A DNA stretch of 64,000 nucleotides from an uncultured bacterium (lineage in GTDB: Bacteria > Hydrothermota > UBA3072): NCBI GenBank assembly GCA_964476585.1, contig CAYZBF010000005.1, positions 15,882-79,881 of the forward strand, given 5' to 3'. Positions 3,644 to 29,205 of this stretch are shown here, piece after piece. Below the pieces are notes generated by a model, which was not told where the DNA came from, did not search any database, and saw nothing but the letters and a program-made list of their open reading frames with translations. Positions within the stretch are counted from its first letter, which is position 1; each line of letters begins with the position of its first letter. A program made the translations under genes and the position numbers.

Positions 3644-5150
3644 ACGCGTAACTATTCTGGATTTTGGTTCCCAGTATACTCATCTAATAGCAAGAAGAAT
3701 GCGTGAATTAAGAGTGCATACTGTGGTATATCCTTATAACGTTTTAGTAAATGAGATATCGGATTCTAAAGGTATAGTGCTCTCTGGTAGTCCTCGAAGT
3801 GTTTATGAGAAGGATGCTCCATTCCCTGACCTTAACATATTTGCTCTCGGGGTGCCTATACTGGGCATTTGCTATGGCCTCCAGGTAATAGGGAAGATAT
3901 TCGATGGTAAGGTAGCTTCATCAAAGGTTAGGGAGTATGGGAAGATGGAATTTCAGGTGAAGGATGATCCACTCTTCACTAACGTTTCTCGCAAAACAAT
4001 AGTCTGGATGAGTCATGGAGATAGGCTAAGTGAGTTACCTCCTGATTTCAAGGCGATAGGCAGCACCAGTAATTCGGAGTTTGCAGCGATAAGGTCTGGA
4101 AATATCTATGGTCTTCAATTTCATCCAGAGGTTACCCACACAGTGGAGGGTAAAAAGATTCTCGAGAATTTCCTTTATTCTATCTGTGGTGTAAAAGGTG
4201 AATGGGACCCTTTGTCTTTTGTTGATATAGCTAAAGATGAAATAATTTCAAAATGTCAGGATGGGAGGGTTGTGCTTGCATATAGCGGTGGTGTGGATTC
4301 TACAGTATGTTCTATTGTTGCAAGGGAAGTCCTTGGAGATAGATTTACGCCAATTTTTGTGGATACTGGTCTCATGAGAGATCACGAGGTTGATGAAATA
4401 AAGAAGGCCAGTGAAGAATTGCAGCTTGGCGTGAGGATACTAGACTCTGAGGAACGATTTCTAAGTGCTCTTGAGGGAATATATAATCCTGAGGAAAAGA
4501 GAATGATAATAGGAAAGGAATTTGCACATGTCTTTGAAGAGGAGGCAGTCGGGCTGAATGCAGAGTATCTAATCCAGGGTACACTTTATCCTGATAGGAT
4601 TGAGAGTGTAAGTGATGTAGGGCCATCTCATTTAATAAAGACACATCATAATGTTGGAGCAATGCCAAAAGATCTAAAGTTAGGGTTGGTTGAGCCTCTG
4701 AAAGATTTCTTCAAGGATGAAGTGAGGGAGATGGCAAGAGTCCTTAAGATTCCTAAAAGAATTTATGGAAGGCATCCATTCCCGGGTCCGGGATTGGCAG
4801 TCAGAATTCTCGGAGAGGTTACGAAAGAGAGATTGGAAATATTGAAGAAAGTGGACCATATATATGTTGAGACGCTGAAATCCTTAGGTCTTTATGATTC
4901 AATATGGCAAGCATTCGCAGTATTTATCCCCGTGAGAACCGTTGGAGTCATGGGTGATAAACGTACCTATGGGAATCTGATCGGACTCAAAGCCGTAGAT
5001 AGTGAGGATGGTATGACTGCAGATTGGCATCATTTCAAAAAGGAGAATATGAATCTCATTGTAAGGCGGATAATGAATGAGGTTGAAGGCGTGAACAGGG
5101 TAGTTTATGATGTGAGTTCCAAACCGCCTTCAACAATTGAATGGGAATAA
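3627..5150 (+). CDS. guaA: GMP synthase (glutamine-hydrolysing)
   Basis: N-terminal class I GATase (ILDFGSQYTHLIARRMREL, GICYG, HPEV); ATP-PPase P-loop LAYSGGVDSTV; C-terminus ends ...TIEWE. Start probably GTG at 3627 or 3636; the ORF-track ATG at 3567 would overlap rpe by 77 nt. Confidence 0.9.
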   Translation: MERVVERVTILDFGSQYTHLIARRMRELRVHTVVYPYNVLVNEISDSKGIVLSGSPRSVYEKDAPFPDLNIFALGVPILGICYGLQVIGKIFDGKVASSKVREYGKMEFQVKDDPLFTNVSRKTIVWMSHGDRLSELPPDFKAIGSTSNSEFAAIRSGNIYGLQFHPEVTHTVEGKKILENFLYSICGVKGEWDPLSFVDIAKDEIISKCQDGRVVLAYSGGVDSTVCSIVAREVLGDRFTPIFVDTGLMRDHEVDEIKKASEELQLGVRILDSEERFLSALEGIYNPEEKRMIIGKEFAHVFEEEAVGLNAEYLIQGTLYPDRIESVSDVGPSHLIKTHHNVGAMPKDLKLGLVEPLKDFFKDEVREMARVLKIPKRIYGRHPFPGPGLAVRILGEVTKERLEILKKVDHIYVETLKSLGLYDSIWQAFAVFIPVRTVGVMGDKRTYGNLIGLKAVDSEDGMTADWHHFKKENMNLIVRRIMNEVEGVNRVVYDVSSKPPSTIEWE

Positions 5151-6076
5151 TCCTTATTATTTTATCTTTTTCAGAAATCCTGCTTCCTTCTGGTGTTCGA
5201 ATAGTGATGGGAAAATCAAATCTACCTGCGCAAATATCGGTTGGGTTGGAAGTTAATCCGAGTATTTCTTTTTCTGAAAAAGCGAGGGGGCTATTTACTA
5301 AACGTGGTTATAATTATCTATATTTGAAGAATGCGGATTCTTTACCTCGCCTAAAGCAGTTTGCCCACCTACTCTCTAAAGATAGCCTTTTCTATATGGA
5401 CAAGGTTCAAACCCCTACAAATCTACTTCGTCTCGCACTCCTGGATTATGGAGGAAATATCTCACCCGTAGTTGATGTTACTGTGGGTTTTACGGGGAGA
5501 ATAGATGAAAATTATATTATTGATTTGTTTTCTCTTATCCCGGATTCCATCATTTCAAATGTCTCCAATTATTATACTTTAAGGCCATTGCAGGGTAAAC
5601 ATATATATTATGGGGATAAGGATTTTGTAGCTAATATCTCCCCTGCTCCACACGATAATGAATTCTTGCCATTTTTGATATGCCTTCAGATTATAGATAA
5701 TAGGGGTTTTAAGGTTCAATTTTCTCCAGAAACTGCTCCATCACCTTTCATTATAAACGACACAGGGTTCGATGTTGGATTGATTTTTAGCGAACCTGAA
5801 ACAGAGGAAATGAGAATAGGAGGAAATCAGGTGAAGGAATGGATGAGAATTGAGTTTAATAATTCCAATCGTTCCAGGATGCTGGTACTCATAACGGAGA
5901 TGGGGCTTAGTGAAGATGAATTTCTAAATTGGATGAAAGACCTACAATATTTGACTCTGGATCGATTAAAGGAAGTATGGGAACGCTATCTACTCGACGG
6001 CTTCGTCTCTTCTGGGTCTCCTGAGTTTTGTAATCTTCTCATTAAACTGTTTCCTGAAGCAGAGGTGATCAAGTGA
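5141..6076 (+). CDS. Hypothetical protein with N-terminal hydrophobic segment
   Basis: 311 aa ORF, start overlaps guaA stop, stop overlaps next gene by 4 nt (coupled); no recognisable domain. Confidence 0.5.
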   Translation: MGIILIILSFSEILLPSGVRIVMGKSNLPAQISVGLEVNPSISFSEKARGLFTKRGYNYLYLKNADSLPRLKQFAHLLSKDSLFYMDKVQTPTNLLRLALLDYGGNISPVVDVTVGFTGRIDENYIIDLFSLIPDSIISNVSNYYTLRPLQGKHIYYGDKDFVANISPAPHDNEFLPFLICLQIIDNRGFKVQFSPETAPSPFIINDTGFDVGLIFSEPETEEMRIGGNQVKEWMRIEFNNSNRSRMLVLITEMGLSEDEFLNWMKDLQYLTLDRLKEVWERYLLDGFVSSGSPEFCNLLIKLFPEAEVIK

Positions 6077-7644
6077 GGCTTCGACCTACCCAGTGGCTGG
6101 TTATTGCTTTTTTTTTACTCCTAATCTTCTATCCTGAGTTTCATTGCACAAAAAGAATTTCTCCTTTTGGTATATTGCTTTTAGACCGCTCGGAGTCAAT
6201 GAAAAGAGCTACCCTACCTAAAATAGATTCTCCTTTTCCCCTTAAAAGATTTGATTTTGGAAGTGAACACCATGGGACTGCAATAGGAGAGGGTTTGCTA
6301 CAGGCTAAAGACAGATATGAAGAAGCGAGTTTTATTCTACTCTATTCTGACGGCTCCAATACTGTAGGGGAAAATCCCATTGAGGCAGCTGCAGAGATTG
6401 GTATACCAGTTTATACAATGCACCCGAATATTACTTTGGATACTTCGGGTTATATTTCAGCGTTTGGTCCGGAGATTATCAAAGAAGGTGATAATGCAGT
6501 TTATAAGGTGCATTATCGAGTCTTGTGCCCTTCAACAATAAATGTGTTAGAAGAAGGCGTCTTAGATAAGAAAGAAGTAGAGGGAGAAGGGATGCTCGAG
6601 TTTGCCCTAAATCCTACTGCTGGAAGACACACTTTTGAATTCAATCTCTCAAAAGGAGACAGAATTATAGATAGAACCTACCGGAATCTCCTTGTGAAAA
6701 AAAGACCTCGAGTTCTAATCTATACCGGGAGTTTAGACTGGAACTATAAATTCTTTTACCGTTACTTCAAGGAACTTGGTTCCAATGTCAGTGGAGTGTG
6801 GAATAGGGATGATTTTGATTCCCCCTTTTCTGATTATGAGATTGTCTGTCTGATTAATCCGAAGATTATGGTAGAGGAGAAAATAGGAGATTATATAAAG
6901 AATGGTGGAAAAACAATAGTCGTCAATTCATCAATGCTTTCCACAGATTTTCTTCCCTTTATTGCTCCAACAATTACAACCGTCTCTTCGGAGCTGCCTA
7001 TTCATCACTATTTAAAGCCGACTGGGATTCGAAGGGGAAGTAGAAGTATTGATATCATGGGTGAAAAGTTAGTCTATATGCTGGATTATGGAGAAGGACA
7101 AGTAGCGCAGGTTGCCTGCCTAGATCCATGGAGACTGAGATTGGCTGGGGGGGGTGTGTATAAAAGGGATCTTTTTGGTGAAATGATGGATAAGCTATTA
7201 AAATATCTTACTCCAGCCAAATTAAATATTTCATATCCAGAACGCTTATTGGAAGGTGAAGAACTTAAGGTGACCTTCGAACCGATGAGCCCCGATTCCT
7301 TTATTTGGGATGGGCATGCACAATCCATTTTAGAAGATTACATCATTATTTCATCTCCAGAAAGGGGCATCCATCACTTTAAGGTAGTTTTCCCTTCTTC
7401 TACATTCATAGAATCTCTCAAAGTGATGAGTGGAAACAATGATGGAATGGGCGTTGATATCACAATGCTTGACGCTATAAGTAGTGGAAGTGGAGGTGGA
7501 AAATGGGAAGATGGTTTTGACCAATCACTCTTTGGATATAAGGAAAAAGAATTATATATAAATTTACGCCATAACTGGTTCTTCCTATCAATATTCTTTA
7601 TTATTCTGTTTTTTGATTGGTATCTATGGATGAGGGGGAAATGA
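6073..7644 (+). CDS. BatA-like membrane protein with a degenerate vWA/MIDAS domain
   Basis: N-terminal TM + ILLLDRSESM (DxSxS) ... GTAIGEGL ... LLYSDGSN, the MIDAS pattern of BatA-type vWA proteins; C-terminal TM. Confidence 0.55.
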   Translation: MRLRPTQWLVIAFFLLLIFYPEFHCTKRISPFGILLLDRSESMKRATLPKIDSPFPLKRFDFGSEHHGTAIGEGLLQAKDRYEEASFILLYSDGSNTVGENPIEAAAEIGIPVYTMHPNITLDTSGYISAFGPEIIKEGDNAVYKVHYRVLCPSTINVLEEGVLDKKEVEGEGMLEFALNPTAGRHTFEFNLSKGDRIIDRTYRNLLVKKRPRVLIYTGSLDWNYKFFYRYFKELGSNVSGVWNRDDFDSPFSDYEIVCLINPKIMVEEKIGDYIKNGGKTIVVNSSMLSTDFLPFIAPTITTVSSELPIHHYLKPTGIRRGSRSIDIMGEKLVYMLDYGEGQVAQVACLDPWRLRLAGGGVYKRDLFGEMMDKLLKYLTPAKLNISYPERLLEGEELKVTFEPMSPDSFIWDGHAQSILEDYIIISSPERGIHHFKVVFPSSTFIESLKVMSGNNDGMGVDITMLDAISSGSGGGKWEDGFDQSLFGYKEKELYINLRHNWFFLSIFFIILFFDWYLWMRGK

Positions 7645-7704
7645 TTTCTTTGATATTCAAAAAAGTACACTTGAAAAAAATTAACCAATCCATATATATA
7701 AGAA

Positions 7705-8871
7705 ATGGAATTTGATTTTATCGTTATAGGTGCAGGCCCTATAGGTTCCTACCTTTCAAAGCTACTTGCTAGTGATGGTTTTTCTGTAGCAATCTTTGAC
7801 AGAAAGCAAGAGGTAGGAAGAGATGTAGTCTGCAGTGGAATTATTGGGAGTGAGCCTTACCATGAATTCGATTTACCAAAGGATGCTATAATTAGCAGGA
7901 TTTCGGATGGCTCAATCTTCTCTCCGTCCATGATTCAATTCCAGTATTCAGAAGACCATCCATTTGCTTATATTGCTGACAGGGAAAAACTTGATAAAAT
8001 CCTATTTTCCAGAGCTATTAATGAAGGGGTTGAACCCTTCCTTGGTAATATGGTAACTGATTTAGAGAAGGAAAAGGGAAGAGTCTCATTGAAATACTTC
8101 AACCAGGGAGACATAAGGAAAATTAGCTCAAGGTGCATCATAATCGCCACAGGTTCCGATTTTGCGTTACACAGGAAAGCTGGGCTCATAGCACCCGAAA
8201 GATTCCTATGGGGAAGTAGGGTTGAATTGGATTATGAGATAAAGGGTCCACTGGAGATATATCTTCTCTGTAATCCTGATCTGGGATCCTTCGGGTGGGT
8301 AATACCGCTTAAGGACAAAACAAGGATAGGAACTGTATCAGAAGATTACGATCGGAATGCACTCCATCGCCTAATTCAAAAGACTAATGGGAGGTTCAAG
8401 CTCCAGGAAAACAGAATCGAAGGCGCGCCTATTGCCTATGGCGACTCAAAAAAAATGGTCAGCAAAAGAGTTATTGCAGTTGGTGAAGCGGCAGGACAGG
8501 TAAAGACTACTACTGGTGGTGGAATACATTATGGACTTATAGGTGCACAACTAGCCCATGATATCTTAAGAAAGTCAGCCTTAGAAGATGACTTTAGTGC
8601 AGATAGGCTTCTTGAGTATGAGAGAATGTGGAGAATTAAAATGGGACACGAGATAAAAGCAGGTATGGTTCTGAGGAACTTGATTTCTAAGGTGCCGTCA
8701 AAAACAGTTGATGTAGTATTTAAGTGGGCAAGGGAAGATTCTGCAATCAAGGAGGATGTTAAGCAGATATTTTCCTTTGATTATCACAAGAATATAATAG
8801 ATTTCGGAGTAAAGCTAATATTGGGTAGAAATACCTTACGTCGTTCTAAATTCAGTTTATTTCCTTTTTAA
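7705..8871 (+). CDS. Geranylgeranyl reductase family FAD-dependent oxidoreductase
   Basis: N-terminal FAD fold FDFIVIGAGPIGSYL...VAIFDRK; overall GGR/ChlP-like arrangement including GEAAGQVKTTTGGGIHYG. Confidence 0.7.
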   Translation: MEFDFIVIGAGPIGSYLSKLLASDGFSVAIFDRKQEVGRDVVCSGIIGSEPYHEFDLPKDAIISRISDGSIFSPSMIQFQYSEDHPFAYIADREKLDKILFSRAINEGVEPFLGNMVTDLEKEKGRVSLKYFNQGDIRKISSRCIIIATGSDFALHRKAGLIAPERFLWGSRVELDYEIKGPLEIYLLCNPDLGSFGWVIPLKDKTRIGTVSEDYDRNALHRLIQKTNGRFKLQENRIEGAPIAYGDSKKMVSKRVIAVGEAAGQVKTTTGGGIHYGLIGAQLAHDILRKSALEDDFSADRLLEYERMWRIKMGHEIKAGMVLRNLISKVPSKTVDVVFKWAREDSAIKEDVKQIFSFDYHKNIIDFGVKLILGRNTLRRSKFSLFPF

Positions 8872-10821: not shown

Positions 10822-11165
10822 TATTCTTCTATTATAGCCTCTGAATATTTTACTTCTCCATTAAAGGGAGGGTTTGACTTCTTGACCCTAACCTTTACTC
10901 TTTCTACAGAATCCAGATCTTTTAAATGTTTCCATATCCTATAAGCAATTGTTTCTATTGTGTAGACTTCCTCTTGGAGAGCCAGGGTCACAAGGTTATA
11001 GACTGTATTAAAGTCGATGCCATAATCCGGGTTATCATTTTCTGCTGTTTTAGTGAAGTCTGTTTCTATCTCTACGTCTATTTCTAATCTCTGTGGCTTT
11101 TCTCTTTCCTTACCAAACCCACACACCTTCATAACCTGTATTCGTGATAATCCTATAGTTTTCAT
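10821..11165 (-). CDS. folB: Dihydroneopterin aldolase
   Basis: MKTIGLSRIQV...GFGKEREKPQRLEIDVEIETD...YRIWKHL; start taken at the internal MKTIGL Met, since the ORF-track start adds 22 non-conserved residues; stop overlaps folK start by 1 nt. Confidence 0.75.
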   Translation of the reverse strand: MKTIGLSRIQVMKVCGFGKEREKPQRLEIDVEIETDFTKTAENDNPDYGIDFNTVYNLVTLALQEEVYTIETIAYRIWKHLKDLDSVERVKVRVKKSNPPFNGEVKYSEAIIEE

Positions 11166-11354
11166 ATAGTTGATTATAGAATGAATTATGATTATTGTCA
11201 AGAAGGTTTTAACTTTGGATGTAACAGCCAAAGCACATAATTACCACTCCCGAAATCATAACCACAGAGAAGCATAGAGATAGTGGCTTCGCTCCATTGT
11301 AGAATGCAAAATGCAAAATTATTATTCACCACAAAGACCCCTTGCTTTCCTTAA

Positions 11355-11460
11355 TTCATCAACCGCGGATTTACACTGTGAAATAACACGATAAGGCATG
11401 ATAAGCGACCGAATGTTGATAAAATATTTTGGAGTGTGACCATTTTCCATTTTTTATTGC
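11355..11460. repeat. Intergenic repeat family, copy A (partial)
   Basis: About 75% identity over about 80 nt with 13150-13235 (GATTTAC-C-GTGAAATAA-ACG-TAA...GATAAAATATTT...). Confidence 0.5.
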
Positions 11461-11533
11461 AGTGAACCCACTGTTTTTATGATGAATGAACCGTATTGAG
11501 GGTGTGGATAGGAACAAACATTTTCACTATAGC

Positions 11534-13087
11534 TTAGAATCTGAATGGGTCGCGGTCAATATTTTCCCTTACACCGCGTAGTATTTCAATGCAAACTTTA
11601 AGTTTCAAGGCGTCATAGGTTTTGATACCTATAGAACCTTTTCCTTTGATTCCAATCTGAATAAAATTAAATCCGTCTATGGAGAGGAACGTTATATCAC
11701 CAATGGATATAGATTTTTCTCCAATGCTCAAGGTATCTTTATAGAGAGTAATGTGATTTTTTATTTTTACTGGTAGAGCTATTCCGTAGGTGAGAATTTT
11801 TTCCTTCATCTTTTTGTATAAAAGCGGAACGATCTTCATTCTGTTGTCAATATACCACTCTCTTTCGCATCTATCACAGTAAAACCTTCTTTTACCTTTT
11901 CTGTTAACCCCATTGGAATTCCCACACTTGGGACACATCCAGAACATTCTTTCAATGTATTTGTTAAAAATTCCCCAGCGTGCGCTGCTACGCTTTGAGC
12001 CAGAAAGAGATTCTTCCATAATGGACTTTAATTCTTTTTCTGATAAGTTTTCTGGATTCTCAATCTTACCTGTAACCTTGACAGTAACGTCTGTTCGGTG
12101 AATTACCTTAGACCATCTTGGAAGGACATTGTGGGCTCCATCTATCCTTAAGAGTGTTATGGCGTAACCAAGACTCTTAATAAATTTTACAACTCTCATA
12201 TCAAAATTCACAAAATTCCCATCCCAGGTTCTACTTGCTTCAGGGAAGATACCGATTATATCACCGTTTTTTAAAGCCTTCTTTGTTTTGATAATGCTTT
12301 TTATACCTGAACCCCTTTTTATAGGAATGCAGCCAAGGGATAGAAAGAACTTTTTAAGAACGGGGTTTTCGAACATCTTACCTGTTGTAATAAATCTTAC
12401 AGGCATGCACACTGCGGCAACAATGAACAGGGGGTCGAGGTAGCACTGATGATTTGAGAGGATTATATATGGGCCCCGATCTTTATCTAACTTGCCTTCC
12501 AGTTTGAGGTGGAATATTTTTCTAAGTATAAGGGATACAACAAGGTATAGAAATATTATAATTGGGTTTACCATGTCAGGCGCCCGGGTTACCTTACTTT
12601 TCAATGGAATAACCGCTGGAACCGAATTTCTATAATCTATATATTCTCTTCCAAACTTTTTGCAAAGAGACCTTTGCTCCCTTATTGTATATAGCATTAG
12701 CAGGAGTAGAAATATAGGATTTACAATATAACTCATTGAAGGGGATAATATTAATCCTAAACCACAGAGGTATAAAAAAAAGGCAATATATAGAGGATGC
12801 CTGACGAATGAATAAGGCCCTGATTTAACAAGATATTTGGGAGGATGACAGAATAGGGGAAGGCCTTTTCCCATATAGTACATAGTATTTGCTGCCCAAA
12901 CGGCAATGTATGTACCTGCAATAATCAAGACAGCACCTATTGATATTCTTAGATGGTTGAAGTCCCAGGAAAGTTCAAAGTGGATATCTATCACGGTAGA
13001 AATGATGGAAATAAATAAAGGAAGAAGTATCCAGAACACAATTATTGAGAATATAGCATCAAAAACAATAGAGTGTCTTTTACTCAT
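11534..13087 (-). CDS. Tripartite fusion: ICMT/PEMT-like methyltransferase + lysophospholipid (PlsC-type) acyltransferase + C-terminal zinc-ribbon region
   Basis: N-terminal: multi-TM with LVKSGPYSFVRHPLY and EQRSL..FGREYIDYRNSVPAVIP (isoprenylcysteine carboxyl / phospholipid methyltransferase signature). Middle: NHQCYLDP (HX4D) and FPEASRTWDG (FPEGTR-like) acyltransferase motifs. C-terminal: CPKCGN...CDRCEREW zinc ribbon. Confidence 0.7.
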   Translation of the reverse strand: MSKRHSIVFDAIFSIIVFWILLPLFISIISTVIDIHFELSWDFNHLRISIGAVLIIAGTYIAVWAANTMYYMGKGLPLFCHPPKYLVKSGPYSFVRHPLYIAFFLYLCGLGLILSPSMSYIVNPIFLLLLMLYTIREQRSLCKKFGREYIDYRNSVPAVIPLKSKVTRAPDMVNPIIIFLYLVVSLILRKIFHLKLEGKLDKDRGPYIILSNHQCYLDPLFIVAAVCMPVRFITTGKMFENPVLKKFFLSLGCIPIKRGSGIKSIIKTKKALKNGDIIGIFPEASRTWDGNFVNFDMRVVKFIKSLGYAITLLRIDGAHNVLPRWSKVIHRTDVTVKVTGKIENPENLSEKELKSIMEESLSGSKRSSARWGIFNKYIERMFWMCPKCGNSNGVNRKGKRRFYCDRCEREWYIDNRMKIVPLLYKKMKEKILTYGIALPVKIKNHITLYKDTLSIGEKSISIGDITFLSIDGFNFIQIGIKGKGSIGIKTYDALKLKVCIEILRGVRENIDRDPFRF

Positions 13088-13130
13088 TGTTTTATAATAT
13101 CGAAATAAGATAAAATATCAACAGTTTTTT

Positions 13131-13300
13131 TAACACAACTCATCCTGTGTTTTTTGACACTGATTTACCCCGTGAAATAATACGGTAAAAAATTATAAGC
13201 GGACGAATACGGATAAAATATTTCACGGGATGATCACTGATTAAGACAGATATTTATAAAATAAAGGGTTCAAGTGACAAAACTAATTAAATTATTGTTT
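13131..13300. repeat. Intergenic repeat family, copy B (contains an embedded TTGACA-N17-ATAATA promoter)
   Basis: Shares TTTTTTGACACTGATTT..., CACTGATT..., AAAGGGTTCAAG with 34315-34520 and the GTGAAATAA..GATAAAATATTT core with 11355-11460. Confidence 0.5.
13145..13173 (+). promoter_or_regulatory. Sigma70-type promoter (TTGACA-17-ATAATA) inside repeat copy B, about 280 nt upstream of bamA
   Basis: TTGACA at 13145-13150, 17-nt spacer, ATAATA at 13168-13173. Confidence 0.45.
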
Positions 13301-13455
13301 TTCTTTGCGAACTTTGCGAGAAATTAAAAGGGGAGTGGGTATTTTACACTTCTTGCCCCGTTAGATATGAAATTATCTAACGGGGTGAACATTCTTCATT
13401 TTGCATTGAACAATCCCCTTGACTTTGTTAACAAATCCATTATTCTTACCCTGCT

Positions 13456-15675
13456 ATGCTAATTCTGCTCTTTCTAATTTCTTTTCCCTATGGAGAAGTA
13501 ATCGTTGATATTGAAACAAAAGGGATAAAAGAGGTTGATACTGCTCTTGTGGTTCACTCCTCTGGTTTAAGAATTGGGGAAATTTTGACCCTTAATAAGG
13601 GAATAAAGGCAATAAAGGACCTTTATGCAACAGGTTTATTTAGAGACATTGAATTGGATGCGCAGCGAGAAGGTGCTGGTATTAAAGTCGTAATCGAGGT
13701 TGAGGAAAATTCCCGATTGAAATCCATCGATTTTAAAGGGAATGCAAAAATAAGTGATGCAGACCTCTCTTCACTAGTGGATTTATCCCCTCCTGCGCTC
13801 CTTTCGAATTATAAATTATTTAATATAAAGGAAAAAATTCTCACGCTGTATAAAGAAAAGGGGTTCTCAGGCACAGAGGTTTCTATCTCGCAAGAAGAAC
13901 AGGAGGATGGTGTGAAGGTTTTATATAACATTGATGAGGGGGAGAAATATAAAGTAAAAAAGATCATTTTTGACAATAATAAAGGTCTATCCGATCATGA
14001 ACTTTCCAAAGTTTTATCTAACAAAACAAAACCATGGTGGATGATTTGGAGAAACAACGACTTAAAGATTGATTCGTTGAAAACCGATGCCTATAAGGTA
14101 GAAGCTCTTTATAGGAAGAAAGGATATCTTGATGCTACCGTGGATACCTTTTTTGTTACGTATGAAGGTAATAAAGCTATTATTGATTATGCAGTGTCTG
14201 AAGGAAGACTTTACTATTTTGGTAACACCTATTTTGATGGAACTGATGATCTAGATTTTGCTTCAACAACCATAAAATGGAATAGAGGGGATAGGTATGA
14301 AGAGGAGAAAATCCAGAAAACTATGGAGACACTCTATAATCATTATACGGATAATGGATTTCTTTATGCAGCAGTACTTCCCGAGTATTCTGTTGTTAAG
14401 GATTCACTTATTGAGATCACATTCCATACAGATAGGGGTTCGCCTGTTTATATCAAGTATATCAATATAATCGGCAATAACAAGACGTACGATAAGGTTG
14501 TCCGACGTAACCTTACTATCTATCCGGGGGAGTTATTCCGACGGAAGGAACTTATAGATAGTCAGCGGAATGTTTACAGACTTGGGTACTTTGAGGATCT
14601 TGGGTTGAATATAGAGAATACAGGTAATATGGATTCAGTAAACCTCATATTTGAGATAAAAGAGAAACAGACCGGTCAATTTACTGCAGGCATCGGGTTC
14701 TCTCAAAGTATAGGGTTAACAGGTAATGTTGGAGCAACTATTCCGAATATTTTTGGAACAGGCCAATCGGTCAGCCTCTCATTTGAAAGAACTATAAGTG
14801 GCGGCACAAAGAGTAATACTATTCAAAATGTGAGTCTGGGATATAGACAACCCTGGTTATTCGATACTCCTACATCGGTGGGTTTTGATCTTTATAAACT
14901 GTATACCAGATGGGGTTACTTTGGGCAAGACAAAGGAGGGGGGTCTTTTTCCCTTGGTAGACTTCTTACAGCAAAAAGAAATTTTCAAGGAACGCTAATC
15001 TACAAATTGGAGAGGACAGAACTGAAAATTCTGGATGAGGGTGCATCTGCGTATATAAAAGCTCAGGAGGGAATAAAATGGGAAAGCTCTATCGGCGGCA
15101 AAATGATCTATGATTCGCGTGATTCTTATATAGCAGCCAGTGTTGGAAATTATTATTCTGTATATACCAAATTTGCCGGGGGACCCCTTGGGGGTACTTT
15201 AAATTACTGGAAGAATATATTAGAAGCAAGAAAATTTCATACCCTTTATGGTAGCATTGTTCTTATGAACAGGGTCCGGATTGGTTACGGGTATTCACCA
15301 GGCGGGGAAGTCCCGCTTACAGAGAGATTTTTTATGGGAGGGATAGGTTTGTGGGGCCTAAGAGGTTATGATGATAGGGATATTGGTCCTTTTTCAGGGA
15401 ATTATGCTATAGGGGGTAGTTTTGCCTTCTTAAACAATCTTGAACTCCGCTATAATTTTTCAAAGACAAGCTATGGTATGATATTCCTTGATGCTGGGAA
15501 CTGCTTTAAAGATATTCAGGCGGCAAGATTATCCGACTTGTTCTATGGTTTTGGCGTTGGGTTTAGAATGGAAGTGCCAATGATGGGAGTCTTTGGGATT
15601 GATTTGGGATATGGCCTTGATGAGAAGAAGGGGGGAGAATGGAAACCGCATTTCCAGATAGGTATGTCCTACTGA
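13456..15675 (+). CDS. bamA: Outer membrane protein assembly factor BamA (Omp85 family)
   Basis: 739 aa; repeated POTRA-like units followed by a C-terminal beta-barrel with alternating aromatic residues ending ...PHFQIGMSY; -35 CCCTTGAC upstream. Confidence 0.85.
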   Translation: MLILLFLISFPYGEVIVDIETKGIKEVDTALVVHSSGLRIGEILTLNKGIKAIKDLYATGLFRDIELDAQREGAGIKVVIEVEENSRLKSIDFKGNAKISDADLSSLVDLSPPALLSNYKLFNIKEKILTLYKEKGFSGTEVSISQEEQEDGVKVLYNIDEGEKYKVKKIIFDNNKGLSDHELSKVLSNKTKPWWMIWRNNDLKIDSLKTDAYKVEALYRKKGYLDATVDTFFVTYEGNKAIIDYAVSEGRLYYFGNTYFDGTDDLDFASTTIKWNRGDRYEEEKIQKTMETLYNHYTDNGFLYAAVLPEYSVVKDSLIEITFHTDRGSPVYIKYINIIGNNKTYDKVVRRNLTIYPGELFRRKELIDSQRNVYRLGYFEDLGLNIENTGNMDSVNLIFEIKEKQTGQFTAGIGFSQSIGLTGNVGATIPNIFGTGQSVSLSFERTISGGTKSNTIQNVSLGYRQPWLFDTPTSVGFDLYKLYTRWGYFGQDKGGGSFSLGRLLTAKRNFQGTLIYKLERTELKILDEGASAYIKAQEGIKWESSIGGKMIYDSRDSYIAASVGNYYSVYTKFAGGPLGGTLNYWKNILEARKFHTLYGSIVLMNRVRIGYGYSPGGEVPLTERFFMGGIGLWGLRGYDDRDIGPFSGNYAIGGSFAFLNNLELRYNFSKTSYGMIFLDAGNCFKDIQAARLSDLFYGFGVGFRMEVPMMGVFGIDLGYGLDEKKGGEWKPHFQIGMSY

Positions 15676-16613
15676 TAATTTCAATCCTTATAATCTCAGG
15701 GTGCGGTTCCCAAAAGGAATATGGGATTAATCCAATTCCCGTTTCTACAGAGATTGTTGAGATTGATTCTTTCTACACGACTACTTTATATGTTCCAACC
15801 GGTGGTGGTGATAGTTTGTTCTCTGGGATAAAGAGCAATTTTGATTCATACGCTCTCCTTAAATTTGATTCTATTCCAGTGAGTTTTGATAGTGTTTCTA
15901 TTAAGCTAAAATCAGATTCAACTCAGCTTGGATTGTGTTTCCATCAAATTACTGATGAATGGTATGAAGATTCCTTGTATGAGTGGGAAGATATAGGGAT
16001 GCTCATAAATACATCCACTGTGCTTCAGACTTCTTTGGTAAATACTAAAAACCCAGAGATTAAATTGAATGGCCAATCTTTAAATGTGATTAATGAATAT
16101 GGAATAGCAATCCATTCCGATTCTTTCTATTCCTTTGCTTCACGAGAAGAGAATGAGCCAAAACTGATTATCTATCAGGGAGATTCAACATATAATTTGC
16201 ACTGTTTGGGAGATCTCTATATAGTGAAGAATCCTTATAATAATCTTCTCAAAGACTCACTATTAATAGGAAGGGGCATATCTATAAAACCGCACCTATT
16301 TATACCCGTTGATTCATTACCCCCTGATAGAGATAATCTTGCAAGAGTTGGACTTCTCTTTAAACTTGAGGAGCCTCCCGCGTTCGATATAATAGCATAT
16401 GATACTTCTGGCAATGAATATTCATCTGAGTGTTATACTGTGGGAGATACAAGTTTCATTGAATTCGATTTACGGACACTTCTCAAGTCAGATTTTTCGG
16501 AATGTTATATCCATGTAACACTGGGCGCTAAGAACGAGTTGGAGGGTATTGATGTTTTAAAATTTTTCCAAAGTGAACTCCGACTTATGTGGGCAGAGAT
16601 AGGTAAGAAATGA
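15639..16613 (+). CDS. Hypothetical lipoprotein
   Basis: Signal peptide + lipobox LIISGC; 324 aa; embedded in the bamA-skp operon; no known domain. Confidence 0.5.
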   Translation: METAFPDRYVLLIISILIISGCGSQKEYGINPIPVSTEIVEIDSFYTTTLYVPTGGGDSLFSGIKSNFDSYALLKFDSIPVSFDSVSIKLKSDSTQLGLCFHQITDEWYEDSLYEWEDIGMLINTSTVLQTSLVNTKNPEIKLNGQSLNVINEYGIAIHSDSFYSFASREENEPKLIIYQGDSTYNLHCLGDLYIVKNPYNNLLKDSLLIGRGISIKPHLFIPVDSLPPDRDNLARVGLLFKLEEPPAFDIIAYDTSGNEYSSECYTVGDTSFIEFDLRTLLKSDFSECYIHVTLGAKNELEGIDVLKFFQSELRLMWAEIGKK

Positions 16614-17557
16614 ATTATATGTTCTTTCTATTTTTAATTATATCTAATCCTCTATATGCTGAGAATATTCCAGGAGAATGGATTGGTGAGAGCGCACTTC
16701 AAGAATCACCGGTATCAAATGGCAACGTCTTTGCAAATCCTGCGACTGCAGATTCATTGAATTCTATCTCTGTTAGTGCGCGTTTTTCCTCCGATGACTA
16801 TAATAAATTTGATGCAAAGCTTTCTTCTGTTATAGTAACATTTCCAGTCATATATGATTTCTTGATAGGTGGGAGGATTAATCTATTGTATAATTCACAA
16901 CTTGAAGGAAAGTTTCCTTGTTCTAATGAGTGGGGTTCTTATGTTGAATATTTCGAGCGGCGAGGTGGTCTTGACCAGTATAGTCTCTTTTTGAAAAAAA
17001 CATTCGGAGAGTTTTCTCTAGGGTTTGACTTGAATCTTCAAAACGGAGAACTTGAAGATAGATGGAAGATCGACTTTGCGGAATATAGTGATATTTTTGA
17101 TACACTCTCTACGTATTTCAGGGGTTATTCGGCAGGCGTTGGCTTGCTTTATTACTGGAAAGGATTTAAAGTGGGTGGATATTACAGTTTTTATCAGAAT
17201 TTAGAATTCTGGAGAGATGGAGAGGATAGGGAAGTGTTCAATCTTGAAAAACCTGTTCGTTTTGGTATTTCCTATTCCCTTGACAGAGGAAAGAGTGTAA
17301 TGTTATCTGCTGATCGGAAGTTAGCTTTACTTACAGGTAGATATGGTCCTCTCATGATAGGATATGGAAGGATTTATGGTTCAGGCTATAACCTTAATAT
17401 CGATGGTAATCGATTCATAGTGGGAATGTTTCTATCCCTTAATAGAGTTCCTTTCACGATAGCAATAGAGAATAGAAGGTATTCTGGAGAATTGCGTGAC
17501 AACGAATATATCGGAACAATAACGATAAGTATTTCTGGTTCAGAAGGAGGTAAATAA
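16610..17557 (+). CDS. Hypothetical outer-membrane beta-barrel-like protein
   Basis: Cleavable signal peptide (..NPLYA|EN); C-terminal two-thirds has alternating hydrophobic/aromatic beta-strand patterns (YYSFYQN, FGISYSL, FIVGMFLSL); 4-nt and 1-nt overlaps with its neighbours. Confidence 0.5.
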   Translation: MNYMFFLFLIISNPLYAENIPGEWIGESALQESPVSNGNVFANPATADSLNSISVSARFSSDDYNKFDAKLSSVIVTFPVIYDFLIGGRINLLYNSQLEGKFPCSNEWGSYVEYFERRGGLDQYSLFLKKTFGEFSLGFDLNLQNGELEDRWKIDFAEYSDIFDTLSTYFRGYSAGVGLLYYWKGFKVGGYYSFYQNLEFWRDGEDREVFNLEKPVRFGISYSLDRGKSVMLSADRKLALLTGRYGPLMIGYGRIYGSGYNLNIDGNRFIVGMFLSLNRVPFTIAIENRRYSGELRDNEYIGTITISISGSEGGK

Positions 17558-24877: not shown

Positions 24878-25061
24878 TTCTCATTGATAAATAGTATTTA
24901 TATTATGTCAAGACAGAAAAATGTTATCTTTGTTTATTATCACTATACACAAATATAAATATATTTATTAAATCTACATTTATCCATGGTTAGAAGTGAT
25001 TGGGTATTGTATATTTTACATTTTAAATTTTTCATTCTTCATTTTGCATTATACTATCCCC

Positions 25062-25090
25062 TTGACATAATCTCGTTCCGATTTTAATAT
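25062..25090 (+). promoter_or_regulatory. ffs promoter (TTGACA-17-TAATAT)
   Basis: CCCCTTGACA at 25062-25067 and TAATAT at 25085-25090, about 7 nt before the SRP RNA 5' end. Confidence 0.6.
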
Positions 25091-25096
25091 AAGATT

Positions 25097-25369
25097 GCCA
25101 GTCGTACTAAGCGGGGAGTTAGCGGTGCCCTATACCTGTAATCCGCTATAGCAGGGCCGAATGCTTGCACAAGCTTATCGTTTTTTATTATGGGCTTCAG
25201 GAGAAGGTGATGAAATTTGGGTCCTTCATAGGAGTGTACCTTAAACCCCGTCAGATCCGGAAGGCAGCAGCGGTAAGAGGATTTCATTCCTGATGGAGGG
25301 TTGCCTAAATGGAGCTTTTCTTCGGTCGTACCGATAAGGGAAGATTTGCAAAGCAAGCTGTACGACTGG
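25097..25369 (+). ncRNA. ffs: Signal recognition particle RNA, long form with Alu domain (Bacillus scRNA-like)
   Basis: 5' GCCAGUCGUACUAAGCGGGGAGUUAGCGGUGCCCUAUACCUGUAAUCCGCUAUAGCAGGGCCGAAU nearly matches the B. subtilis scRNA 5' Alu domain. Domain IV CCCCGUCAGAUCCGGAAGGCAGCAGCGGUAAG. Termini GCCAGUCGUAC / GUACGACUGGU pair. Sits directly upstream of dnaX-ybaB-recR as in Firmicutes. Confidence 0.9.
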
Positions 25370-25380
25370 TAGAAATTATT

Positions 25381-27819: not shown

Positions 27820-27893
<74 letters not shown>

Positions 27894-27950: not shown

Positions 27951-28625
27951 ATGAGTTTTATATTGGCGATTGATGGAACTTCAGGATCCGGAAAGACTAC
28001 TACTGCAAGAAAAATAGCAGAACGTCTTGGTTGGTTTTATTTGGATACAGGTGCAACGTATAGAGCAATAACTTATGCAGTATTGGAATGTGGTAAGAAT
28101 CCTGAAGAGGTTAGAGGAGTTATTCAGGTATTAAAAGGTTTGAAACTAGACGTTAAAAACTCAGAGGATGGACAGAGGACTTTTGTTAATAGCGAGGATG
28201 TGACTGATTGTCTAAGAACAGATGAAATCGATAAGTTGGTTACACCGATATCAAAGATGAAAGAAGTTCGAAAATGGTTGGTAAAATTTCAAAGAAAAAT
28301 AGCCAGAAATAAAAATATTGTTGTGGAAGGAAGAGATATAGGGACAGTTGTATTTCCTTACGCTAATCTCAAAATATATATGGATGCAGAACTCCCCGTA
28401 CGAGCAAGAAGAAGAAAGAAACAAAAAGTTGGGTTTAAAGATATAGGAGAAATAAAGAATGATCTCCAGCGCAGGGATTACCATGATTTCACAAGATCGG
28501 AGAGTCCTCTTAAAAGAGCACCAGATGCTCTTCTGCTTGATACCACTTATCTTTCTGTAAACGAACAGGTTGAATGGGTTATAAATAGAATTGAACAGCT
28601 AAATGAAAGCACCGCTTCAATATAA
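27951..28625 (+). CDS. cmk: Cytidylate kinase
   Basis: ILAIDGTSGSGKTTTARKIAERLGWFYLDTGATYRA, the canonical Cmk N-terminus. Confidence 0.85.
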   Translation: MSFILAIDGTSGSGKTTTARKIAERLGWFYLDTGATYRAITYAVLECGKNPEEVRGVIQVLKGLKLDVKNSEDGQRTFVNSEDVTDCLRTDEIDKLVTPISKMKEVRKWLVKFQRKIARNKNIVVEGRDIGTVVFPYANLKIYMDAELPVRARRRKKQKVGFKDIGEIKNDLQRRDYHDFTRSESPLKRAPDALLLDTTYLSVNEQVEWVINRIEQLNESTASI

Positions 28626-29205
28626 GATCAGCAGGGCTCTTCTGTATTTCCTTTTTAAGATCCTATTTGGTCTGAAAGGAGAAGATGTTTCAAATGTGCC
28701 TAAAGAGGGTCCAGTTATTATTGCTCCCAATCATCGTTCAAACTATGATCCGTTATTGGTAGGCGGCTGTGTTGATAGTCGTGAGATCTATTATTTAGCA
28801 AAATCGGGTCTCTTTATATCAAAAGTGGCTACCTGGTTTCTTAAGAGTTTAAATGTAATCCCAGTTGATCTAGAAAATCCCGGAATAGGAACAATGAGAA
28901 GATTTATTAATCTACTTAAGGATGGTAAGGCAATAATGGTTTTCCCGGAGGGGACTCGCTCAAAAACACATGAATACTTGAAAGCCCAACCAGGAGTGGG
29001 CTTTCTTTCAATAAGGACAAATGTTCCTGTGATTCCCACTCTTATTGAGGGAACCTATGAGTCAATGATAAAACATTTCTTCCGTCGCACCCCACTCCGA
29101 GTGAAATTTGGGATCCCTATCTATCCAGAGAATAAAGTAAAAAACTTAAAAGATGCTCAGAAACTATCTGATAGAATACTTGAGGAAGTGAAGAAGTTAG
29201 GCTGA
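28603..29205 (+). CDS. plsC: 1-acyl-sn-glycerol-3-phosphate acyltransferase
   Basis: NHRSNYDP (HX4D) and FPEGTRS motifs; 200 aa. Confidence 0.8.
   Translation: MKAPLQYKISRALLYFLFKILFGLKGEDVSNVPKEGPVIIAPNHRSNYDPLLVGGCVDSREIYYLAKSGLFISKVATWFLKSLNVIPVDLENPGIGTMRRFINLLKDGKAIMVFPEGTRSKTHEYLKAQPGVGFLSIRTNVPVIPTLIEGTYESMIKHFFRRTPLRVKFGIPIYPENKVKNLKDAQKLSDRILEEVKKLG

What the first reader, a model, noticed from the sequence alone, without database searches (positions are those of the whole stretch)
11534..13087. ICMT-like methyltransferase fused to a PlsC-type acyltransferase and a zinc ribbon
A single 517-aa ORF combines (i) a multi-TM N-terminus with RHPLY and EQRSL..FG.EY..Y...VP..IP signatures of the isoprenylcysteine-carboxyl / phospholipid methyltransferase family, (ii) an HX4D (NHQCYLD) plus FPEASRT acyltransferase domain, and (iii) a CPKCG...CDRCEREW zinc ribbon with about 120 further residues of unknown fold. 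A canonical standalone plsC exists at 28603-29205, so this fusion is an extra enzyme, possibly making a methylated or otherwise modified acyl-lipid. Copies of an intergenic repeat sit on both sides of it.
Basis: partly seen in the sequence, partly recalled or inferred. Interest (0 to 1): 0.5.

Follow-up and report, generated by a model that had tools for sequence, protein, structure and literature searches.

The report
Methyltransferase–acyltransferase fusion membrane lipid enzyme
A single conserved gene in this uncultured Stahlbacteria genome joins a membrane-embedded methyltransferase to a phospholipid-type acyltransferase, a zinc ribbon and a PH-like domain; this uncharacterised family of about 100 sequence clusters probably builds a methylated, acylated membrane lipid whose identity is unknown.

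Summary

The fusion is not a frameshift or an assembly artefact. An exhaustive HMMER search found about 100 full-length relatives (50%-identity cluster representatives). They come from Stahlbacteria, Bipolaricaulota, Thermotogae-labelled MAGs, Neomarinimicrobiota, Poribacteria and Bacteroidales MAGs. In 97 full-length members the catalytic motifs of all three modules are 91-100% conserved.

A larger sister family has the acyltransferase, zinc ribbon and PH-like domain but no methyltransferase.

A separate housekeeping plsC (28603-29205, cmk-plsC-ispH) is present. The flanking 62-nt direct repeat is real (79% identity, two copies).

The BamA/LpxD neighbourhood is lineage-specific synteny, not an operon signal. 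In other phyla the gene pairs with a radical SAM/SPASM gene (46% identical across phyla) and with an ABC-2 exporter pair.

Most likely this is a bifunctional lipid-tailoring enzyme at the cytoplasmic face of the membrane. The substrate and product are not determined. It is a new variant of known kinds, of moderate interest.

The parts
11534..13087 (-). Complete 517-aa ORF (stop codon included): methyltransferase - acyltransferase - zinc ribbon - PH-like fusion
   Evidence: The ORF is listed. A 100% identical protein, P0001, is present in NCBI and JGI. It aligns over its full length with 11 homologues and about 100 cluster representatives.
12593..13087 (-). Residues 1-165: integral-membrane ICMT/PEMT-class SAM methyltransferase domain, with about 4 transmembrane helices, the RHPLY motif at 96-100 and the E137-Q138 ...FG..Y..Y motif
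   Evidence: Pfam PEMT and ICMT score above their gathering cutoffs. Ma-ICMT (PDB 4a2n) matches at E=1.1e-9 over query residues 83-155, and Foldseek also hits 4a2n and 5v7p. In 97 family members RHP is 95-99% conserved, E137 94% and E138 91%; this protein has Q at position 138. Helices 2-37, 45-72, 98-114 and 116-145 are seen in the AF2 model.
12506..12568 (-). Residues 174-194: short hydrophobic helix (PIIIFLYLVVSLILRK) preceding the acyltransferase core, probably interfacial or monotopic
   Evidence: The AF2 model shows a helix at 175-192. It lies immediately before the stretch that aligns with T. maritima PlsC from residue 63. Its equivalence to the PlsC membrane-embedded two-helix motif is an inference from published knowledge of PDB 5KYM.
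11966..12505 (-). Residues 195-374: AGPAT/PlsC-type acyltransferase domain, with HX4D at H213/D218, motif II R258, FPEASR at 281-286 and PRW at 323-325
   Evidence: PF01553 scores 7.7e-16. T. maritima PlsC (PDB 5kym) matches at E=1e-20 over query residues 192-372 and is the top Foldseek hit at 1.2e-7. In 97 family members H213 and D218 are 100% conserved, R258 96% and R286 99%.
11834..11965 (-). Residues 375-418: C4 zinc ribbon (C385, C388, C404, C407)
   Evidence: The four Cys are invariant in A1 and A2 and 99-100% conserved in 97 proteins. The AF2 model shows a three-stranded ribbon. Zn-ribbon profiles and ribosomal or RNA-polymerase zinc ribbons match weakly.
11537..11833 (-). Residues 419-517: alpha-helix (419-434), then a PH-like domain made of a seven-strand beta-sandwich capped by a C-terminal helix
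11368..11429 (.). Downstream copy of the flanking intergenic direct repeat (adjacent to the gene; no functional link shown)
   Evidence: It is 79% identical to the other copy, and shuffled sequence gives 0 matches.
13162..13223 (.). Upstream copy of the flanking repeat, in the divergent region between the fusion gene and bamA. It contains an 11-bp long-range stem and overlaps a plus-strand promoter-like site.
   Evidence: establish the repeat. Folding gives z-scores of -3.4 and -4.1. The promoter-like site TTGACA-16-AATAAT lies at 13154-13181.

Best explanation
The gene encodes a bifunctional, membrane-integral lipid-tailoring enzyme.

Shown: it has an N-terminal four-helix ICMT/PEMT-class SAM-dependent methyltransferase, followed by an AGPAT/PlsC-type acyltransferase, a C4 zinc ribbon and a PH-like domain. 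All catalytic and metal-binding motifs are under family-wide conservation.

Inferred: the basic N-terminus and the positions of the SAM motifs (RHPxY, EE) place both ends of the methyltransferase domain on the cytoplasmic side. The acyltransferase, zinc ribbon and PH-like domain would then also sit on the cytoplasmic face. A short hydrophobic helix that takes the place of the PlsC membrane-dipping helix would tether them there.

Inferred: the acyltransferase moves an acyl chain from acyl-ACP or acyl-CoA onto a lyso-type acceptor. That acceptor probably carries a phosphate, because the motif II and III arginines R258 and R286 are conserved. The neighbouring methyltransferase methylates the head group (amine, phosphate or carboxylate) of the same lipid in the inner leaflet. 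The product would be an acylated and methylated membrane lipid made in addition to the bulk phospholipid supplied by the standalone PlsC.

Inferred: the zinc ribbon plus PH-like module serves as a docking or regulatory module, for the membrane surface or for the acyl donor.

The most specific guess is lysophospholipid re-acylation coupled to N-methylation of phosphatidylethanolamine (PE). It has no direct support.
For: - Domain identities are established.
- The fusion is ancient and under selection. It is found in 97 full-length members, in which RHPxY, EE, HX4D, FPEGxR, PRW and the four Cys are each 91-100% conserved.
- About 22 species-level genomes across at least 5 phyla carry it, as do about 100 clusters at 50% identity.
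- The acyltransferase is closest to PlsC (5kym, 1e-20) and to the Aas-type acyl-ACP:lysophospholipid acyltransferase domain (NF006386, 1.2e-18).
- Fusions of an integral-membrane lipid-handling domain to the N-terminus of this acyltransferase type have a precedent in MFS(LplT)-Aas proteins, which appear among the hits (P0021, P0027, P0037).
- Characterised ICMT/PEMT-class enzymes act on membrane-embedded lipidic substrates. Examples are BpsB on phenolic lipids (PMC9827899), and LmtA on lipid A phosphate and PEMT on PE (own knowledge).
- The PEMT-type domain is also found fused to another lipid transferase, Lgt (P0022).
- A separate plsC in the window means this enzyme is not the housekeeping LPA acyltransferase.
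- The PH-like fold of the C-terminal domain is compatible with binding to the membrane or to a lipid head group.
Against: - No substrate, product or activity has been shown for any member.
- The scores to every curated equivalog model are far below cutoff: PlsC TIGR00530 62.8 against 102.95, isoprenylcysteine methyltransferase 39 against 160, LmtA 38 against 325.
- This particular protein has Q instead of the 91%-conserved second Glu of the EE SAM motif. Its methyltransferase activity is therefore less certain than that of its relatives.
- The gene neighbourhood in Stahlbacteria gives no lipid-pathway clue.
- In other lineages the partners are a radical SAM/SPASM enzyme, small Gly-rich membrane proteins and an ABC-2 exporter. 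These would fit a peptide or secondary-metabolite substrate as well as a lipid.
- The MT-less sister family is not accompanied by a separately encoded methyltransferase, so the two activities need not be obligatorily coupled.
- The full-length AF2 model is only of moderate confidence (pLDDT 72.8, pTM 0.53). The relative position of the two active sites is not known.
Confidence: 0.5

Rival explanations
1. It is only an extra lysophospholipid/LPA acyltransferase paralogue. The PEMT-like domain has been co-opted as a polytopic membrane anchor and no longer methylates anything, at least in this Stahlbacteria protein.
For: The acyltransferase + zinc ribbon + PH-like module functions without any methyltransferase in a larger sister family (59 of the 186 proteins fetched), and no methyltransferase gene lies nearby. 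The window protein carries E138Q in the EE motif.
Against: RHPxY, E137, the FG..Y..Y motif and G90 are 82-99% conserved across 97 proteins that are otherwise only 25-33% identical. A mere anchor would not require this. The close relatives (65-74% identity) keep EE.
Confidence: 0.15
2. It modifies lipid A or LPS: an LmtA-like phosphate methylation plus a secondary acylation. The reasoning is that in Stahlbacteria the gene is divergently adjacent to the bamA-skp-lpxD-lptD cluster.
For: The neighbourhood is conserved in the 69%-identical relative. LmtA (TIGR04571) is among the best methyltransferase hits at 1.2e-9. Foldseek lists LpxM weakly.
Against: The synteny is already lost at 50% identity (P0007) and in all other phyla. 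The LmtA score of 38 bits is far below the cutoff of 325 and no better than the generic ICMT score. The acyltransferase belongs to the PlsC/AGPAT family, not the LpxL/M family. The family is common in MAGs labelled Thermotogae/Thermotogaceae and Bipolaricaulota. Cultivated Thermotogae are not known to make lipid A (own knowledge, not tested here).
Confidence: 0.07
3. It tailors a lipidated or membrane-bound peptide or protein rather than a free lipid. Candidates are the N-terminal S-diacylglyceryl-cysteine of lipoproteins, or a RiPP-like product in the lineages where it sits beside radical SAM/SPASM genes and exporter genes.
For: - A radical SAM/SPASM gene is adjacent in 8 loci and 46% identical across phyla.
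- Small Gly-rich membrane proteins lie downstream in 12 of the 26 loci clustered, and in two tandem copies in a further locus, L092.
- A related ABC-2 exporter pair occurs in three clusters.
- An Rce1-like CPBP gene overlaps the start of the gene in Thermotogaceae.
- A PEMT-Lgt fusion exists.
- A CPBP-family protein, LnsB, takes part in lipoprotein N-acylation in S. aureus (PMC7387801).
- PH/PTB-like folds often bind peptides.
Against: None of these partners is present in the 64-kb window. CPBP genes are very common, and the Thermotogaceae adjacency is a single evolutionary observation. The motif II and III arginines typical of phosphate-bearing glycerolipid acceptors are conserved. No AGPAT-family enzyme acting on a peptide is known to me (own knowledge).
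Confidence: 0.1
4. The N-terminal domain is a reductase of the same clan (steroid 5-alpha-reductase / ERG4-ERG24 / DUF1295) rather than a methyltransferase.
For: There are weak Pfam hits to ERG4_ERG24 (0.0045) and DUF1295 (0.012), and Foldseek hits to the sterol reductase 4quv and to SRD5A 7c83.
Against: Only PEMT and ICMT pass their gathering scores, and the reductase models are 5-6 orders of magnitude weaker and below cutoff. The sequence match to Ma-ICMT covers the SAM-binding motifs.
Confidence: 0.04
5. The fusion is an artefact: a frameshift, a mis-assembly, or two genes read as one.
For: None was found.
Against: The same continuous architecture occurs in independent assemblies from JGI, ENA, Logan and NCBI. 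It spans several phyla and about 100 clusters.
Confidence: 0.01

Closest known systems
[quoted passage not shown] Thermotoga maritima PlsC, PDB 5KYM
   Same: It has the same AGPAT fold and the same catalytic motifs (HX4D, motif II Arg, FPEGxR). 5KYM is the best solved-structure match by sequence (1e-20) and by fold (1.2e-7). A hydrophobic helix precedes the core.
   Different: The score is below the TIGR00530 cutoff (62.8 against 102.95). The N-terminal two-helix anchor is replaced by a polytopic methyltransferase domain. A zinc ribbon and a PH-like domain are added at the C-terminus. There are family-specific invariant motifs, RSWDG and PRW. A separate housekeeping plsC exists in the same window.
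Aas / LplT-Aas (acyl-ACP:2-acyl-lysophospholipid acyltransferase, often fused to an MFS lysophospholipid flippase)
   Same: This is the best NCBIfam hit to the acyltransferase domain (NF006386, 1.2e-18). The design principle is the same: an integral-membrane lipid-handling domain fused to the N-terminus of an AGPAT acyltransferase (P0021, P0027, P0037).
   Different: The membrane domain here is a PEMT/ICMT methyltransferase, not an MFS transporter. There is no AMP-ligase domain. The score is far below the equivalog cutoff (66 against 1221).
ICMT/PEMT-class integral-membrane methyltransferases: Ma-ICMT (PDB 4A2N), Ste14/ICMT, PEMT/Opi3, LmtA, MddA, BpsB
   Same: The RHPxY and EE...FG..Y..Y SAM-binding motifs are shared. 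Pfam PF04191 and PF04140 score above cutoff. 4a2n matches at 1.1e-9, and the fold also matches.
   Different: It cannot be assigned to any characterised subfamily; the isoprenylcysteine methyltransferase, LmtA and MddA models all score far below cutoff. It is fused to an acyltransferase. This copy has EQ instead of EE.
Uncharacterised ~400-430-aa 'acyltransferase + zinc ribbon + C-terminal domain' proteins of Spirochaetia, Clostridia, Myxococcota, Gemmatimonadota and others (e.g. P0013, P0019, P0130)
   Same: They share the acyltransferase + C4 zinc ribbon + C-terminal domain module. The A1 profile aligns them from about residue 175 to about 505.
   Different: They lack the methyltransferase domain, and no separate methyltransferase gene is nearby. 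Identity is only 23-29%. [quoted passage not shown]
Eukaryotic PH / PTB / GRAM / FERM-F3 domains, e.g. NF1 Sec-PH (PDB 2E2X) and the myotubularin GRAM-PH domain
   Different: There is no detectable sequence similarity (6-16% identity), and no Pfam PH or bPH model matches. The ligand is unknown. Here the domain is preceded by a zinc ribbon and attached to an enzyme.

Membership tests
Pfam PF01553 / AGPAT (GPAT-LPLAT) acyltransferase superfamily | Profile match above the gathering score | tested here: met
   58.5 bits against a cutoff of 23, E=7.7e-16, residues 203-303.
Pfam PF01553 / AGPAT (GPAT-LPLAT) acyltransferase superfamily | Catalytic motif I (HX4D), motif II (acceptor-binding Arg) and motif III (FPEGxR) | tested here: met
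   NHQCYLD with H213 and D218 (100% conserved in 97 members), IPIKR with R258 (96%), and FPEASR with R286 (99%).
PlsC proper (1-acyl-G3P acyltransferase, TIGR00530 / PRK15018) | Score at or above the curated NCBIfam cutoff | tested here: not met
   TIGR00530 scores 62.8 bits against a cutoff of 102.95. A separate plsC-like gene lies in the cmk-plsC-ispH context at 28603-29205.
PlsC proper (1-acyl-G3P acyltransferase) | LPA-dependent acyl transfer from acyl-ACP or acyl-CoA | not testable with these tools
   This needs an enzyme assay.
Aas-type acyl-ACP:lysophospholipid acyltransferase (NF006386 / NF005291) | Equivalog score and the MFS + acyltransferase (+ AMP-ligase) architecture | tested here: not met
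   66.3 bits against a cutoff of 1221, and only the acyltransferase domain aligns (profile positions 414-554 of 1147). No MFS or AMP-binding domain is present.
Pfam PF04191 (PEMT) / PF04140 (ICMT) integral-membrane methyltransferases | Profile match above the gathering score | tested here: met
   PEMT scores 37.5 bits against 25, covering profile positions 2-104 of 105. ICMT scores 29.9 bits against 24.
Pfam PF04191 (PEMT) / PF04140 (ICMT) integral-membrane methyltransferases | SAM-binding motifs RHPxY and EE...L...FG..Y..Y | tested here: inconclusive
   RHPLY, E137, FG and the Y..Y residues are present. The second Glu is Gln in this protein (E in 91% of 97 members and in all other sequences of alignment A1). 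The effect on SAM binding is unknown.
Protein-S-isoprenylcysteine O-methyltransferase (NF040696) / LmtA (TIGR04571) / MddA (NF045656) | Equivalog score at or above the curated cutoff | tested here: not met
   39 bits against 160, 38.3 against 325, and 20.7 against 270.
C4 zinc ribbon | Two CxxC knuckles, conserved, on a beta-ribbon | tested here: met
   C385/C388 and C404/C407 are invariant. The AF2 model shows a three-stranded ribbon. Pfam zinc-ribbon families score below cutoff. Metal binding itself was not tested.
PH-like superfold (PH / PTB / GRAM / FERM-F3) | Seven-strand antiparallel sandwich capped by a C-terminal helix | tested here: met
PH-like superfold (PH / PTB / GRAM / FERM-F3) | Binding of a lipid head group or a peptide | not testable with these tools
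   There is no sequence similarity to PH domains with known ligands.

The most novel reading that the evidence does not exclude
The family makes a so-far undescribed class of membrane lipid, or lipidated envelope molecule, in deep-branching and largely uncultured phyla (Stahlbacteria/WOR-3, Bipolaricaulota, Thermotogae-labelled MAGs, Marinimicrobia). One polypeptide would both acylate the molecule and methylate its head group. In some lineages a dedicated radical SAM/SPASM enzyme would process it further and an ABC-2 transporter would export it.

A bolder version of this reading treats the ICMT-like domain together with the Rce1-like and Lgt-fused relatives as a bacterial counterpart of eukaryotic CAAX processing. 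In that version it acts on S-lipidated cysteine of lipoproteins.
Probability: 0.15. Interest if true: 0.75.

Novelty: new variant of a known kind. Interest (0 to 1): 0.42.

Why it matters
Both enzyme classes are well known, but I found no description of their fusion. Full-text searches for the domain pair and related terms returned nothing. [quoted passage not shown]

A conserved fusion is strong genomic evidence that the two reactions act on one substrate. The family therefore points to an unrecognised acyl- and methyl-modified lipid in lineages whose membranes are almost unstudied and which dominate some hydrothermal and sediment habitats. Such a lipid could be a new biomarker for environmental lipidomics.

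The finding also defines a bacterial module of acyltransferase, zinc ribbon and PH-like domain that is much more widespread than the fusion itself. It gives a concrete, cloneable target (about 1.5 kb) for heterologous expression and lipidomics.

Tried and rejected
- **Operon link to outer-membrane biogenesis.** A link with bamA-skp-lpxD-lptD or with folB-folK was rejected. The synteny holds at 69% identity but is gone at 50% identity and in other phyla.
- **The flanking direct repeats as marks of a recently inserted cassette.** This is unlikely, because the gene sits in the same place in a 69%-identical relative. The repeat is absent from all 89 related loci.
- **RNA families.** No Rfam family matches in 11000-13600.
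- **Partner genes seen elsewhere.** I looked in the window for the radical SAM/SPASM gene, the c1 membrane protein, the Rce1-like gene, the ABC-2 pair and the ~270-aa unknowns. None is present.
- **A separately encoded methyltransferase beside MT-less homologues (Rosetta-stone test).** None was found in 58 loci.
- **Family annotation of the conserved neighbours.** The c1 protein and the ~270-320-aa proteins have no Pfam family. The radical SAM/SPASM partner matches only generic models (NirJ2/AhbD-like) far below cutoff.
- **The sulfatase domain in the 1,100-aa variants.** It is arylsulfatase/choline-sulfatase-like, not LtaS/EptA-like. My first idea of a phosphoglycerol-transferase link was dropped.
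- **Look-up of the exact window protein's contig.** It is not on record.
- **AFDB50 fold search.** It was unavailable.
- **The OlsG paper (PMC4463453).** It is not held. I could not check whether the ornithine-lipid N-methyltransferase belongs to the PEMT family.
- **Literature searches.** Searches for the fusion found nothing relevant.
- **Other phospholipid-synthesis genes in the window.** Annotation of 20 further ORFs and three ORFs around plsC turned up no other phospholipid-synthesis gene besides plsC.
Full report
**1. The observation**

All quoted motifs are present: RHPLY 96-100, EQRSL..FG.EY..Y...VP..IP 137-161, NHQCYLD 212-218, FPEASRT 281-287, CPKCG...CDRCEREW 385-411.

Pfam assigns residues 47-147 to PEMT (PF04191, 3.4e-9, 37.5 bits against cutoff 25) and ICMT (PF04140, 29.9 against 24). 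It assigns residues 203-303 to Acyltransferase (PF01553, 7.7e-16, 58.5 against 23). Zinc-ribbon models match only weakly.

NCBIfam agrees at domain level: the Aas-type acyltransferase domain at 1.2e-18, AGP_acyltrn at 2.6e-17, isoprenylcysteine methyltransferase at 7e-10, LmtA at 1.2e-9. Every curated equivalog cutoff is missed by a wide margin. The protein therefore belongs to the two superfamilies but to no characterised subfamily.

Against solved structures, the profile of the family hits T. maritima PlsC (5kym, 1e-20, query 192-372) and Ma-ICMT (4a2n, 1.1e-9, query 83-155, covering the SAM motifs). Foldseek on the full-length AF2 model (pLDDT 72.8) returns the same two folds.

**2. A true and recurrent fusion**

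- The word-indexed search found the identical protein in NCBI and JGI, plus eleven further proteins with the same architecture at 74-25% identity.
- The exhaustive HMMER search of 1.84 billion cluster representatives returned 916 proteins at E<=1e-30. Most of the top ~135 are 490-600 aa long and align over profile positions ~7-500.
- Re-scanning the 186 proteins fetched with sub-profiles gave 101 with methyltransferase-acyltransferase-zinc ribbon (with or without a detectable C-terminal domain). Another 59 have acyltransferase-zinc ribbon (with or without the C-terminal domain) and no methyltransferase.
- In 97 full-length members the functional residues of every module are conserved. RHP is 95-99%, E137 94%, E138 91%. 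H213 and D218 are 100%, R258 96%, F281/P282/E283/R286 are 91-99%, PRW 323-325 is 96-100%, and the four Cys are 99-100%.
- A scan of one genome per species (GTDB) identifies the window's lineage as Candidatus Stahlbacteria (L010, 74% identity). It finds the full-length fusion in about 22 species: Bipolaricaulota, MAGs labelled Thermotogae and Thermotogaceae, Neomarinimicrobiota and Poribacteria. Bacteroidales also carries it (P0012).

A frameshift, a chimera or a chance ORF is excluded.

**3. The C-terminal third**

A model of residues 375-517, built on a 38-sequence alignment, is confident (pLDDT 87, pTM 0.74). It shows:

- a three-stranded C4 zinc ribbon;
- a helix at residues 419-434;
- a seven-strand sandwich closed by a C-terminal helix.

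The same profile region aligns in the MT-less ~400-aa proteins. Acyltransferase + zinc ribbon + PH-like is therefore an older module, onto which the methyltransferase was grafted in place of a short N-terminal hydrophobic segment.

**4. Topology (inference)**

The AF2 model has four long helices in the methyltransferase domain: 2-37, 45-72, 98-114 and 116-145. Three features suggest that both ends of this domain are cytoplasmic:

- a basic N-terminus (MSKRHS);
- the RHPxY motif at the start of helix 3;
- the EE motif at the end of helix 4.

The hydrophobic stretch 174-194 is too short for a full membrane span. It lies just before the region that aligns with PlsC from residue 63, which is where PlsC has its membrane-dipping helix (own knowledge of 5KYM). 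The acyltransferase, the zinc ribbon and the PH-like domain should therefore all sit on the cytoplasmic face, next to the methyltransferase active site.

**5. Genomic context**

In the window the gene lies between two gene groups:

- downstream on the same strand, folB-folK-dNK-panC;
- divergent on the other side, bamA, two unknown genes, skp, lpxD and an LptD-like gene.

These identities come from the precomputed Pfam hits of the syntenic 69%-identical locus and. The synteny is lost at 50% identity and elsewhere, so it carries no functional signal.

The window also holds a separate plsC in the classic cmk-plsC-ispH arrangement. Among the 20 additional ORFs I annotated there is no other phospholipid gene.

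Elsewhere the family has recurrent partners:

- A radical SAM/SPASM gene is adjacent in 7 of 26 loci and again in L092. It is 46% identical between Bacteroidales and Bipolaricaulota/Marinimicrobia, although the fusion proteins themselves are only ~29% identical.
- A ~190-aa Gly-rich membrane protein lies downstream in 12 of 26 loci, and in two tandem copies in L092.
- An ABC-2 exporter pair is 41-49% identical among three clusters. Their PEMT-domain proteins are, respectively, the fusion (L008), the fusion extended by a sulfatase domain and preceded by an Orn/Arg-type decarboxylase (L094), and a PEMT-Lgt fusion (L090).
- In Thermotogaceae an Rce1-like CPBP gene overlaps the start of the fusion gene.

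None of these partners occurs in the 64-kb window. MT-less homologues have no methyltransferase gene nearby.

**6. Interpretation**

*What is shown.* Two catalytic domains and two accessory domains are joined in one conserved polypeptide, and all active-site motifs are under selection.

*What is inferred.* The enzyme acts at the cytoplasmic leaflet on one membrane-embedded substrate. The AGPAT domain acylates it from acyl-ACP or acyl-CoA. The conserved motif II and III arginines suggest a phosphate-bearing lyso-lipid acceptor. The ICMT/PEMT domain methylates its head group with SAM.

Characterised members of that methyltransferase class methylate carboxylates (ICMT), amines (PEMT), phosphates (LmtA), thiols (MddA) and phenolic or enolic hydroxyls (BpsB; PMC9827899). 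The atom methylated here cannot be deduced.

The nearest design analogue is LplT-Aas, in which a membrane lipid-handling domain is fused upstream of the same type of acyltransferase.

I give this general model 0.5. The sub-hypothesis of lyso-PE acylation plus PE N-methylation is only a guess.

*Caveat for this particular gene.* The second Glu of the EE motif is Gln.

*Rivals and their estimated probabilities.*

- Methyltransferase domain acting only as an anchor: 0.15.
- A lipidated peptide or lipoprotein substrate: 0.10. It is suggested by the rSAM/SPASM, CPBP and Lgt links and by LnsB (PMC7387801).
- Lipid A modification: 0.07.
- Reductase rather than methyltransferase: 0.04.
- Artefact: 0.01.

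**7. The flanking repeat**

Copies at 11368-11429 and 13162-13223 are direct and 79% identical. They occur only twice in the window, against 0 in shuffles. They are absent from related loci.

The upstream copy folds into a long-range 11-bp stem (z=-3.4 and -4.1). The downstream copy keeps a weaker stem in the same register. The upstream copy overlaps a plus-strand promoter-like site facing bamA. No Rfam family matches.

I see no evidence that the repeats mobilised the gene, because the gene's position is conserved in a 69%-identical relative.

**8. Novelty and score**

Both enzyme families, zinc ribbons and PH-like folds are all known. The four-domain combination, the family of about 100 clusters and the broader acyltransferase-zinc ribbon-PH module appear undescribed (searches found nothing) and are un-named in the databases.

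This is a new variant of known kinds. It is a good target for lipid biochemistry in uncultured phyla but not a categorical surprise. Interest: 0.42.

Noticed in passing
window 11368-11429 and 13162-13223: This is the flanking 62-75-nt direct repeat. The upstream copy forms an 11-bp long-range stem (CCCGTGAAATA...TATTTCACGGG) with z about -3.4 to -4.1 on either strand. The downstream copy keeps a weaker stem in the same register with partly different bases. There is no Rfam match, and the repeat is absent from 89 related loci. It could be a palindromic regulatory or REP-like element.
   Followed up: partly
window 13390-13423 and 25033-25066 (partial inverted copy at 11296-11319): A 34-nt repeat (91% identical) ending in TTGAC lies about 35-65 nt upstream of bamA (13456) and of the SRP RNA gene (25102). 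It looks like a shared promoter/UP-type module. A third related piece, TTTTTTGACACTGATTT, recurs at 13150 and 34326.
   Followed up: partly
window 13094-13121 (minus strand) and the ATG at 13087: A promoter-like TTGATA-16-TATTAT ends 6 nt before the start codon of the fusion gene, and there is no Shine-Dalgarno sequence. The mRNA may be leaderless. This rests on a consensus match only.
   Followed up: no
window 25102-25365 (+): This is a bacterial large SRP RNA (139 bits). The mechanically listed ORF 25309-26886 overlaps its 3' end, so that gene's true start is probably further downstream. tRNA-Met lies at 27820-27893 and tRNA-Glu at 35718-35791.
   Followed up: no
L008 1036-10472; L090 1717-9603; L094 4825-12649; L092 2178-6239: Related gene clusters in other lineages combine a PEMT-domain fusion with several other genes. 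The fusion partner is acyltransferase-Zn-PH, the same plus a sulfatase domain, or an Lgt-like domain. The accompanying genes are a radical SAM/SPASM enzyme, an ABC-2 exporter pair (41-49% identical between clusters) and a ~270-320-aa unknown protein. Depending on the cluster there is also an Orn/Arg-type decarboxylase, a sulfotransferase/APS kinase, an SQS_PSY-like protein or a B12-radical SAM. This looks like an undescribed biosynthesis-and-export cassette for a lipid or metabolite.
   Followed up: partly
L027, L028, L030 (Thermotogaceae), about 7373-7957 upstream of the fusion gene: An Rce1-like CAAX/CPBP intramembrane protease gene overlaps the start of the ICMT-like fusion gene by about 20 nt. 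The pairing echoes the eukaryotic Rce1-ICMT pair. It is a single lineage observation. A MoxR-type AAA ATPase, a VWA/DUF2201 protein and DUF4895 lie upstream.
   Followed up: no
window 15639-17557 and 5141-7644: Several conserved ORFs have no Pfam family. Two genes lie between bamA and skp (324 and 315 aa), and one of 311 aa lies upstream of the FAD-dependent oxidoreductase. All three are syntenic in the 69%-identical relative.
   Followed up: no
window 34549-34581 and 35511-35551: Short GTTGA(A/G)TAGTTGA-type reiterated motifs lie in the intergenic regions on either side of the truA-like gene (34725-35471). The second set lies about 170 nt upstream of tRNA-Glu. Their function is unknown.
   Followed up: no
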